Part shown: piece after piece, positions 9,970 through 10,482 of the stretch
Layout of the letters: every line of letters starts with the position of its first letter
Numbering within the stretch: position 1 is the stretch's first letter
Assembly (NCBI RefSeq): GCF_057098645.1
Contig: NZ_CM169472.1
Length of the DNA: 64,000 nucleotides
Direction: 5' to 3' (one strand)
Program-made: the position numbers and the translations under genes
Notes under the pieces: generated by a model
What the model was told of the DNA's origin: nothing
What the model saw: the letters and a program-made list of their open reading frames with translations, nothing else
The model's database searches: none

Positions 9970-10120
9970 GGAAGTTACAGAAAGTGACCAGATAGCGCAT
10001 ATATGTTCTGTACTCTCTTGCGCATTTTGATTGTTGACTGAGCAATCAGACAGTTGATGTGCACGATTTCCCCTCGCCCTAACAGACGTGGGCGGGGGCT
10101 CCCGATGTGTGCAATATACG

Positions 10121-10148
10121 AAAAAAAAGCCCGTACTTTCGTACGGGC
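10121..10148 (-). terminator. Rho-independent terminator downstream of serX
   Basis: Plus strand A8 then GCCCGTAC-TTTC-GTACGGGC; on the minus strand this is a hairpin followed by a U-run just past the tRNA 3' end. Confidence 0.7.
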
Positions 10149-10161
10149 TCTTCTTTAAATA

Positions 10162-10249
10162 TGGCGGTGAGGGGGGGATTCGAACCCCCGATACGTTGCC
10201 GTATACACACTTTCCAGGCGTGCTCCTTCAGCCACTCGGACACCTCACC
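10162..10249 (-). tRNA. serX: tRNA-Ser (anticodon GGA), 88 nt with long variable arm and encoded CCA
   Basis: Reverse complement reads GGTGAGGTGTCCGAGTGGCTGAAGGAGCACGCCTGGAAAGTGTG...GGTTCGAATCCCCCCCTCACCGCCA; T-arm GGTTCGAATCC present. Confidence 0.9.
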
Positions 10250-10482
10250 AAATTGTCGTTCCTGTCTTGCTGGAACGGGCGCTAATTTAGGGAAATCATG
10301 ACCTGAGGTCAACAAACTTTTTGAAAAAATCGCGCGTTTATTCAAACTTCAATCAATATGTGGTTTTAATAAGCGAAATCTGCTTTTTTTGCCACCGACC
10401 ACGGATTTGTTATGCTGGTGGTCTTTGTAGATGATAACGATAAGTGCGAATAAATTTCGCACAACGCTTTTCGGGAGTCAGT

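What the first reader, a model, noticed from the sequence alone, without database searches (positions are those of the whole stretch)
9970..10482. Accessory operon abuts the 3' end of tRNA-Ser (serX)
serX is on the minus strand, so its 3' end with the terminator faces the accessory operon, the usual geometry for tRNA-associated variable regions. No integrase or direct repeat of the tRNA 3' end is visible in this window, so the region may be ancestral and lost or decayed in some lineages, not recently acquired here.
Basis: inference. Interest (0 to 1): 0.4.

Follow-up and report, generated by a model that had tools for sequence, protein, structure and literature searches.

The report
Old integrase-less island beside empty serX site
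The interval is the ordinary E. coli ycdU–serX–ghrA intergenic region with an unoccupied serX integration site, and the operon next to it is the right end of the already described O157 "O-island 47", an old insertion that did not use the tRNA and has eroded in many strains.

Summary
serX (tRNA-Ser GGA) lies at 10162-10249 on the minus strand. Its 3' end and a strong hairpin terminator (10121-10156) face the convergent operon that ends with ycdU at 9969. No integrase and no second copy of the serX 3' end occur in the 64-kb window or in 36 kb upstream in a 99.9 % identical genome.

The operon is truly accessory. It is complete in 381 of 5426 finished E. coli genomes, reduced to an IS-bounded ymdE'-ycdU stump in about 2290, and absent from the rest. 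It is the right-hand part of the published O-island 47 of O157:H7.

The insertion is old, because its divergence is core-like, and it has decayed through IS3, IS1 and IS5 deletions. It is not ancestral, however. The "empty" dgcT-serX junction, with a DgcT C-terminus conserved down to 76 % identity, is also found in a divergent, probably non-coli Escherichia contig.

The island's right junction is about 60 bp beyond the tRNA, outside the 14-bp att core. Genuine serX islands (OI-48/SpLE1 type, with a P4 integrase) insert between ycdU and serX. The association with the tRNA is therefore probably largely positional.

Already known; low interest.

The parts
1..1002 (+). 3' end of a 852-aa double beta-ketoacyl synthase gene; the operon starts outside the window
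   Evidence: Annotation of the 99.9 % identical UTME-3. Further upstream lie acpS, SDR, FabZ-like, ACP and aminomethyltransferase genes.
1007..2230 (+). beta-ketoacyl synthase (407 aa)
   Evidence: Pfam ketoacyl-synt N- and C-terminal domains; annotation.
2227..3180 (+). hypothetical protein (317 aa)
   Evidence: No Pfam hit. Its position is conserved in the homologous operons of other genera.
3191..5849 (+). ABC ATPase (3191-3898), hypothetical 218 aa (3882-4538) and MacB/FtsX-type permease (4539-5849)
   Evidence: Pfam ABC_tran, MacB_PCD and FtsX.
5858..6646 (+). LolA-like outer-membrane lipoprotein-sorting protein
   Evidence: Pfam PF17131, E = 2.6e-36.
6643..8031 (+). hypothetical protein (462 aa)
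   Evidence: No Pfam hit; syntenic in Enterobacter and metagenomic homologues.
8045..8986 (+). full-length ymdE (ACP S-malonyltransferase). K-12 keeps only the part from 8643 onward, next to IS3
   Evidence: Pfam Acyl_transf_1. Truncation points: IS3 at 8458 and 8643, IS1 at 8811.
8983..9969 (+). ycdU, a membrane protein and the last gene of the operon
   Evidence: Annotation; 99.2 % nucleotide identity to K-12 ycdU. One lineage is truncated by IS5 at 9924.
9970..10100 (.). Island-derived spacer after ycdU, containing a GC-rich hairpin at 10071-10098. The right boundary of the inserted block is at about 10100
   Evidence: Homology with dgcT-serX ('empty') genomes starts at query position 402, which is window 10101. 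Hairpin fold.
10121..10156 (.). Bidirectional intrinsic terminator: the native serX terminator, which probably also ends the ycdU operon
   Evidence: Inverted repeat I1; folds with z = -6.8 on the minus strand and -3.8 on the plus strand; terminator scan. The sequence is conserved in the empty-site genomes.
10162..10249 (-). serX, tRNA-Ser(GGA). Its last 14 nt (10162-10175, TGGCGGTGAGGGGG) are the attB core used by P4-integrase islands; the site is unoccupied here
   Evidence: The att core is from PMC3064760. It occurs once in the window. The occupied state is shown in strain 105.
10284..10312 (-). sigma-70-like promoter candidate for serX
   Evidence: Consensus scan only, 9 of 12 matches; such sites are not enriched over shuffles.
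10389..10416 (+). sigma-70-like promoter candidate for ghrA
   Evidence: Consensus scan only.
10483..11421 (+). ghrA (ycdW), the first core gene on the 5' side of serX
   Evidence: Annotation. The serX-ghrA segment matches in 5425 of 5426 genomes, and ghrA is annotated under the match in every chromosomal row listed.

Best explanation
Interval 9970-10482 is the normal E. coli ycdU-serX-ghrA intergenic region in its unoccupied state. serX is transcribed leftward from a promoter shared with the divergent ghrA region. It ends at a strong hairpin with a U8 run that, read on the other strand, probably also ends the convergent ycdU operon.

The operon is a type II fatty-acid/polyketide-like synthase set plus a MacB/LolA-like exporter, ymdE and ycdU. 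It forms the right end of an integrase-less block of about 33 kb, made up of O157:H7 O-island 47 plus ymdE-ycdU.

This block was inserted long ago between the last ~40 bp of dgcT and a point ~60 bp 3' of serX. It replaced about 90 bp of ancestral spacer and did not involve the 14-bp att core inside the tRNA. It has since been inherited largely with the flanking chromosome and eroded repeatedly by IS-mediated deletions. K-12's dgcT-IS3-ymdE'-ycdU arrangement is one such remnant, and the window's lineage has instead lost dgcT.

Separately, P4-integrase islands of the OI-48/SpLE1 and CP4-like types use the serX att core and insert between ycdU and the tRNA.

Shown here: the anatomy, the distribution across strains, the junction sequences and the polarity against outgroup sequences. 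Inferred: a single old insertion, the mechanism of insertion (unknown, not att-mediated) and shared use of the terminator.
For: - **Identity and anatomy:**
- **Same block as O157 OI-47:** 98.4 % identity over 9969 bp with identical gene order up to serX. The literature gives OI-47 as 31,727 bp, z1528-z1556, followed by OI-48 (PMC8565820).
- **Variable presence and IS-bounded stumps:**
- **Core-like divergence of the operon between carriers:**
- **Polarity:** the B2-type DgcT tail KEAEILINRKDDE is conserved in alleles down to 76 % identity, whereas the K-12/O157 tail RDVVNFCESP occurs only in the alleles closest to K-12. dgcT directly adjoins the RtT-like/terminator/serX sequence in ST131, APEC, an E. 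coli with an 89 % dgcT allele, and a divergent contig whose pgaA is 90 % identical.
- **Left edge of the island:** O157 has dgcT with the derived tail followed directly by OI-47. K-12 has IS3 at exactly that point.
- **Right junction:** at window ~10101, beyond the native terminator.
- **Real att use:** ycdU, then the 14-bp direct repeat, then the integrase, about 87 kb of island, and serX (PMC3064760).
- **Homologous operons elsewhere:** 73, 64 and 52 % YcdU identity in other Enterobacteriaceae, same gene order, no tRNA within 10 kb.
Against: - The outgroup evidence rests on a few contigs, one of them an 8-kb metagenomic fragment of uncertain species.
- I could not scan E. albertii or E. fergusonii genomes directly. 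Their lack of YcdU is inferred from a peptide-pattern scan that can miss relatives and from the identity gap.
- Homologous recombination of whole flanking segments could move either allele (empty or island) between lineages, so 'single old insertion' is not proven.
- The insertion mechanism is unknown.
- GC content is uninformative: about 50 % for the operon and 41 % for ycdU.
- Use of the terminator by the operon has not been tested.
Confidence: 0.8

Rival explanations
1. One reading: the operon is ancestral to E. coli at this locus, and strains without it lost it.
For: There is no integrase or direct repeat. Divergence and GC content are core-like. Many lineages demonstrably carry deletion remnants.
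Against: Empty-site strains retain about 90 bp of spacer plus a DgcT C-terminus that island carriers lack. Both are conserved in divergent alleles and in a probably non-coli Escherichia contig, and a deletion cannot recreate them. No YcdU relatives at 85-97 % identity turned up outside E. coli contexts.
Confidence: 0.1
2. A classical tRNA-integrated genomic island that entered at serX through a tyrosine integrase and later lost its integrase and distal repeat.
For: It lies on the 3' side of a tRNA gene that is a proven integration hot spot. It has mosaic virulence-type cargo upstream: fimbriae, two-partner secretion, regulators and IS elements. RtT-like repeats in related strains supply extra copies of the att core at which an element could integrate distally.
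Against: The native terminator and about 60 bp of ancestral flank still sit between the tRNA and the island. att-mediated entry would have placed them at the far end. No att-core copy exists anywhere between pgaA and serX. The left junction is inside the dgcT coding sequence. The same operon in other genera is not linked to a tRNA.
Confidence: 0.07
3. A recent horizontal acquisition specific to the window's strain or clone.
For: Only 7 % of finished genomes have the whole operon. The window's lineage is rich in IS elements.
Against: The same block at the same junctions occurs in lineages 1.6-1.9 % diverged (O157:H7, E105), and the flanking core genes diverge to a similar degree. K-12-type remnants share the right junction.
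Confidence: 0.03

Closest known systems
O-island 47 of E. coli O157:H7 EDL933 (z1528-z1556; holds vmpA, fidL, grvA, a fimbrial operon, a two-partner secretion pair and a fatty-acid/polyketide-like synthase cluster), plus the K-12 'backbone' genes ymdE' and ycdU
   Same: 98.4 % nucleotide identity over window 1-9969, the same gene order and the same junction with serX. The published size and position fit.
   Different: The window lineage, like UTME-3, has lost dgcT and the 5' end of the EAL gene, and in UTME-3 several island genes are pseudogenes. O-islands were defined by comparison with K-12, so the published OI-47 stops at K-12's IS3 breakpoint inside ymdE. Biologically the block runs on to about window 10100.
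serX/serW-integrating P4-integrase islands (OI-48/OI-43, also called SpLE1 or the tellurite-resistance and adherence island; SRL-PAI of Shigella; CP4-like islands)
   Same: They occupy the same side of the same tRNA and account for much of the variability at this junction: 1344 of 5426 genomes have such an island end abutting serX.
   Different: Those islands have a P4-type integrase and 14-bp direct repeats of the serX 3' end. They replace the native terminator next to the tRNA and lie between ycdU and serX. The window has none of these features; its attB is empty.
RtT-type 181-bp tandem repeats downstream of tRNA genes (Rfam RF00391; that this family was first described at tyrT is from my own knowledge)
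   Same: K-12-type strains carry 1-6 units between ycdU and serX. Each unit has the terminator plus the last 19 nt of serX. The ancestral dgcT-serX spacer ends in a partial unit.
   Different: The window has no unit at all, and there is no RtT hit even at E <= 1. These repeats could be mistaken for island att repeats, but they are tandem and are not associated with an integrase.

Membership tests
serX (tRNA-Ser GGA gene of E. coli) | tRNA cloverleaf with GGA anticodon, located between ycdU/dgcT and ghrA | tested here: met
   ARAGORN, Rfam tRNA 53.8 bits, 100 % identical to K-12 b1032, synteny.
tRNA-integrated genomic island (P4-type integrase) | Tyrosine integrase gene at one end | tested here: not met
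   The annotation of near-identical genomes from pgaABCD to fabG lists no integrase. Compare strain 105 and contig L024, which do have one.
tRNA-integrated genomic island (P4-type integrase) | Flanking direct repeats derived from the tRNA 3' end | tested here: not met
   The 14-bp core and the 20-mer occur only once in the window and not at all in the 36 kb upstream.
tRNA-integrated genomic island (P4-type integrase) | Island junction falls within the tRNA 3' end, so island DNA replaces the native downstream sequence next to the tRNA | tested here: not met
   The native terminator and about 60 bp shared with empty-site genomes follow the tRNA; the boundary is at about 10100.
tRNA-integrated genomic island (P4-type integrase) | Presence varies between strains of the species | tested here: met
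   Complete in 381, remnant in about 2290, absent from about 2758 of 5426 genomes.
tRNA-integrated genomic island (P4-type integrase) | Base composition deviates from the host's | tested here: inconclusive
   The operon has 43-56 % GC per kb, about 50 % on average; only ycdU is low at 41 %.
O-island 47 (O157:H7) | Sequence identity and gene order with the O157:H7 block between dgcT/pgaA and ycdU | tested here: met
   100 % coverage at 98.4 % identity and the same annotated genes; published coordinates.
RtT repeat array | 181-bp units matching Rfam RF00391 between ycdU and serX | tested here: not met
   No match in the window at the gathering score or at E <= 1. Present in K-12.

The most novel reading that the evidence does not exclude
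The RtT-like units 3' of serX may be more than passive repeats. Each carries the terminator plus the att core. The ancestral dgcT junction, the right edge of the ~33-kb island and a distal integrase-island junction (contig L024) all fall inside or at the edge of such units. The units might therefore act as a recombination-prone landing pad or as decoy att sites that capture foreign DNA without an integrase. Their copy number (0 in this window, up to 6 elsewhere) might then tune how often serX islands integrate or excise.
Probability: 0.08. Interest if true: 0.45.

Novelty: already known. Interest (0 to 1): 0.15.

Why it matters
The practical value is in annotation. Being next to a tRNA does not make a block a tRNA-integrated island. 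The serX attB is empty in this window, and the neighbouring accessory operon belongs to an older block that is independent of the att site. The published name "OI-47" also stops at a breakpoint that exists only because it was defined against K-12. The cross-strain picture explains why K-12 has the ymdE pseudogene and the orphan ycdU. It also gives a polarity (the empty dgcT-serX junction is primitive) that I did not find stated in the papers I read. The product of the synthase/exporter operon is still unknown, and that is the only real open question at this locus.

Tried and rejected
- **Repeat searches in the window.** I searched for copies of the serX 3' end (20-mer with up to 3 mismatches, 14-mer with up to 1) in the window and in 36 kb upstream: none. 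A generic repeat search over 9000-11000 gave only short chance pairs and the terminator.
- **Rfam.** At permissive thresholds on 9900-10550, only the tRNA was credible; the other hits are sub-threshold and driven by the terminator.
- **Base composition.** It gave no evidence of foreign origin.
- **Species-representative genome scan with YcdU.** It returned only Enterobacter loci plus two obvious E. coli contaminant contigs labelled Flavobacterium and Roseibium. It therefore could not show Escherichia outgroups directly, and I polarised the junction with DgcT tails and contexts instead.
- **Origin of K-12's 42-bp derived dgcT tail.** Short-word BLAST against the island in UTME-3, E105 and O157 strain OK1 found nothing, because those loci lack or do not reach dgcT. 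The tail was later found next to OI-47 in O157 strain TX 265-1.
- **PapRG-06-5 as the source strain.** I assumed this at first because its operon is 100 % identical, then rejected it: that genome has an island in serX.
- **Operon function.** I did not get beyond Pfam domains.

Full report
**What is at the coordinates**

The window holds one tRNA gene, tRNA-Ser(GGA), at 10162-10249 on the minus strand. Rfam confirms it at 53.8 bits, and it is 100 % identical to K-12 serX. The interval 9970-10482 is exactly the gap between the stop codon of ycdU (9969) and the start of ghrA (10483).

The tRNA's 3' end therefore faces the plus-strand operon that ends with ycdU. Between them lies a perfect terminator-type hairpin at 10121-10156. 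On the minus strand it folds at -27.1 kcal/mol (z = -6.8) and is followed by eight U residues. On the plus strand it still folds (z = -3.8) before a U-rich stretch, so it can end both convergent transcripts.

A second GC-rich hairpin lies at 10071-10098. Promoter-like hexamers for serX and ghrA exist but are no more frequent than in shuffled sequence.

**Source of the window**

The window is collinear with E. coli UTME-3 at 99.95 % identity. The one exception is a 1195-bp IS5-like element in yceJ, a junction shared with strain EPSSH018.

**What the operon is**

Inside the window the operon encodes the following:
- the end of a double ketosynthase and a second ketosynthase;
- a conserved 317-aa protein of unknown function;
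- an ABC ATPase, a 218-aa protein of unknown function and a MacB/FtsX-type permease;
- a LolA-like protein;
- a 462-aa protein of unknown function;
- a full-length ACP S-malonyltransferase (ymdE);
- the membrane protein YcdU.

In the near-identical genome it begins upstream of the window with acpS, an SDR, a FabZ-like dehydratase, an ACP and an aminomethyltransferase-family protein. Further upstream come a filamentous-haemagglutinin/ShlB pair, IS3, a decayed fimbrial operon, an SDR, a regulator, a FidL-like protein and an EAL protein, followed by pgaABCD.

O157:H7 has the same block at 98.4 % identity with the same junction to serX. This is the published O-island 47: 31,727 bp, z1528-z1556, encoding GrvA. 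In EDL933 it is followed by OI-48 (PMC8565820).

**Cross-strain comparison**

Among 5426 finished E. coli genomes:
- 381 hold at least 80 % of window 1-9969;
- about 2290 hold only a stump that starts at 8458, 8643, 8811 or 9924;
- about 2758 hold nothing.

Each stump is bounded by an IS element:
- IS3 directly after dgcT, at 8458 or 8643; the latter is the K-12 arrangement dgcT-IS3-ymdE'-ycdU;
- IS1 at 8811, with part of the pga operon also lost;
- IS5 at 9924, with everything back to phoH lost.

The neighbour on the 3' side of serX is:
- ycdU in 2067 genomes;
- dgcT in 1150 (examples are ST131 and APEC);
- the DUF4942/CbtA-YeeU end of a CP4/OI-48-type island in 1344.

**serX as a real integration site, and where those islands sit**

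Bielaszewska et al. (PMC3064760) describe OI-48/SpLE1 as integrated in serX. It is flanked by 14-bp direct repeats, TGGCGGTGAGGGGG, which are the last 14 nt of the tRNA. It carries a P4-family integrase and excises by site-specific recombination. They treat ycdU as the upstream chromosomal gene.

I verified this arrangement in strain 105. The order there is: operon, ycdU, the same spacer and terminator as in the window, the 14-bp repeat, the integrase, about 87 kb of island, then DUF4942 and the intact serX.

In such genomes the sequence next to the tRNA is island DNA, and the native terminator has moved to the ycdU side. In the window the native terminator is still next to the tRNA, and the att core occurs once only. 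The window therefore shows the unoccupied attB.

PapRG-06-5 has an operon 100 % identical to the window's, yet it carries an island in serX. Occupancy of the site is thus independent of the operon.

**Direct repeats in relatives: a trap**

K-12-type genomes do contain extra copies of the serX 3' end between ycdU and serX. These copies belong to a 181-bp tandem array of 3.4 copies in MG1655; PGAP annotates 1-6 units across the sampled strains.

Each unit consists of the terminator, the last 19 nt of serX and a body that matches Rfam RtT. They are not island att sites. The window has no unit, even at permissive thresholds.

**Ancestral or acquired?**

Four lines of evidence bear on this.

1. *Age.* The operon differs from the O157 and E105 copies by 0.6-3.8 % per gene, while most flanking core genes differ by 0.2-2.3 %. 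The block has therefore been diverging with the chromosome for a long time.

2. *Taxonomic range.* YcdU relatives are at least 98 % identical in E. coli and then drop to 73, 64 and about 52 % in other Enterobacteriaceae. One exception is a 92 % variant, which lies in an ordinary E. coli context. In the more distant taxa the gene order from the double ketosynthase to ycdU is kept, but no tRNA lies within 10 kb, and some copies sit beside conjugation genes.

3. *Polarity at the left junction.* DgcT in empty-site strains ends in KEAEILINRKDDE. This tail is conserved in alleles of 90, 88, 87 and 76 % identity. The K-12 and O157 proteins end in RDVVNFCESP, a tail seen only in the alleles closest to K-12.

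4. *Contexts.* An E. coli with an 89 % dgcT allele has dgcT-serX directly (L025). A divergent contig whose pgaA is 90 % identical to E. coli has the following order: dgcT, a partial RtT unit, terminator, RtT unit, terminator, the 14-bp repeat and a P4 integrase, with no operon (L024). A still more distant contig keeps dgcT followed by the partial RtT unit (L026).

O157:H7 has dgcT with the derived tail followed immediately by OI-47, and K-12 has IS3 at exactly that base.

Empty-site strains retain about 90 bp that island carriers lack, including the conserved end of the dgcT reading frame. A deletion cannot recreate that sequence, so the empty state is primitive and the island is derived. Its right edge is at about window 10100, where homology with empty-site genomes resumes. 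That point is about 60 bp beyond the tRNA and outside its terminator.

**Conclusion**

The block is old and decaying, with no integrase or repeat, and it was not recently acquired. It is not ancestral, however, and it did not enter through the tRNA.

The inferred history is:
1. the original arrangement was dgcT-serX;
2. an insertion of about 33 kb clipped the end of dgcT and about 90 bp of spacer;
3. the block was then eroded by IS elements in many lineages, and the window's own lineage lost dgcT and the 5' end of the EAL gene;
4. integrase islands integrated independently, and repeatedly, at the att core between ycdU and serX.

All the main elements are already in the literature: OI-47, OI-48/SpLE1 at serX, and the heterogeneity of ymdE/ycdU (PMC4951805). 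The finding is therefore ordinary, and only the polarity argument adds detail.

**Limits**

- The outgroup evidence comes from a handful of contigs.
- I could not scan named Escherichia species directly for the junction.
- The insertion mechanism and the operon's product remain unknown.

Noticed in passing
window 31554-32748: A 1195-bp IS5-like (ISKpn26-family) element is inserted in yceJ (cytochrome b). It is absent from the otherwise 99.95 % identical UTME-3. The identical junction occurs in strain EPSSH018 (NZ_CP125889.1), which is probably the window's lineage.
   Followed up: partly
L006 (K-12) 11962-12584; absent from window 9970-10161: A 181-bp tandem array (3.4 copies in K-12; 1-6 units annotated in other strains) lies between ycdU and serX and matches Rfam RtT. 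Every unit repeats the serX terminator and the last 19 nt of the tRNA, including the 14-bp att core. The ancestral dgcT-serX spacer ends in a partial unit.
   Followed up: partly
L002 21109-22680 (UTME-3, upstream of the window): The window's lineage lacks dgcT. Its EAL-domain gene (the vmpA position of OI-47) starts inside DNA homologous to the K-12 pgaA-dgcT intergenic region, which implies a deletion that fused the two. O157:H7 strain TX 265-1 keeps both dgcT and a longer EAL gene.
   Followed up: partly
L002 (UTME-3) 5984-7603, 14898-17400, 25423-27440: Several genes in and around the island are pseudogenes in UTME-3: ShlB-type transporter (internal stop), fimbrial usher and fimbrial protein (frameshifts, next to IS3), and pgaB just outside the island (frameshift).
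   Followed up: no
window 15850-15941 (minus strand): An Rfam ES056 sRNA match (119.7 bits) lies just upstream of csgD in the csgD-csgB intergenic region.
   Followed up: no
window 17044-17499 (csgA): csgA is much more divergent between strains (91-95 % identity to ST131, O157 and E105) than its neighbours, which are 97-99.8 % identical.
   Followed up: no
L012, L015: Contigs 100 % identical to E. coli ycdU are deposited under a Flavobacterium psychrophilum MAG and a Roseibium aggregatum assembly. Both are short contigs and almost certainly E. coli contamination.
   Followed up: no
L022/L023 11000-21000: In the metagenomic homologues with 64 % YcdU identity, the same synthase/exporter operon sits next to conjugative-transfer genes (TraG-like, a T4SS coupling protein, ParE/PaaA2). 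This suggests the operon travels on a conjugative element in some hosts.
   Followed up: no
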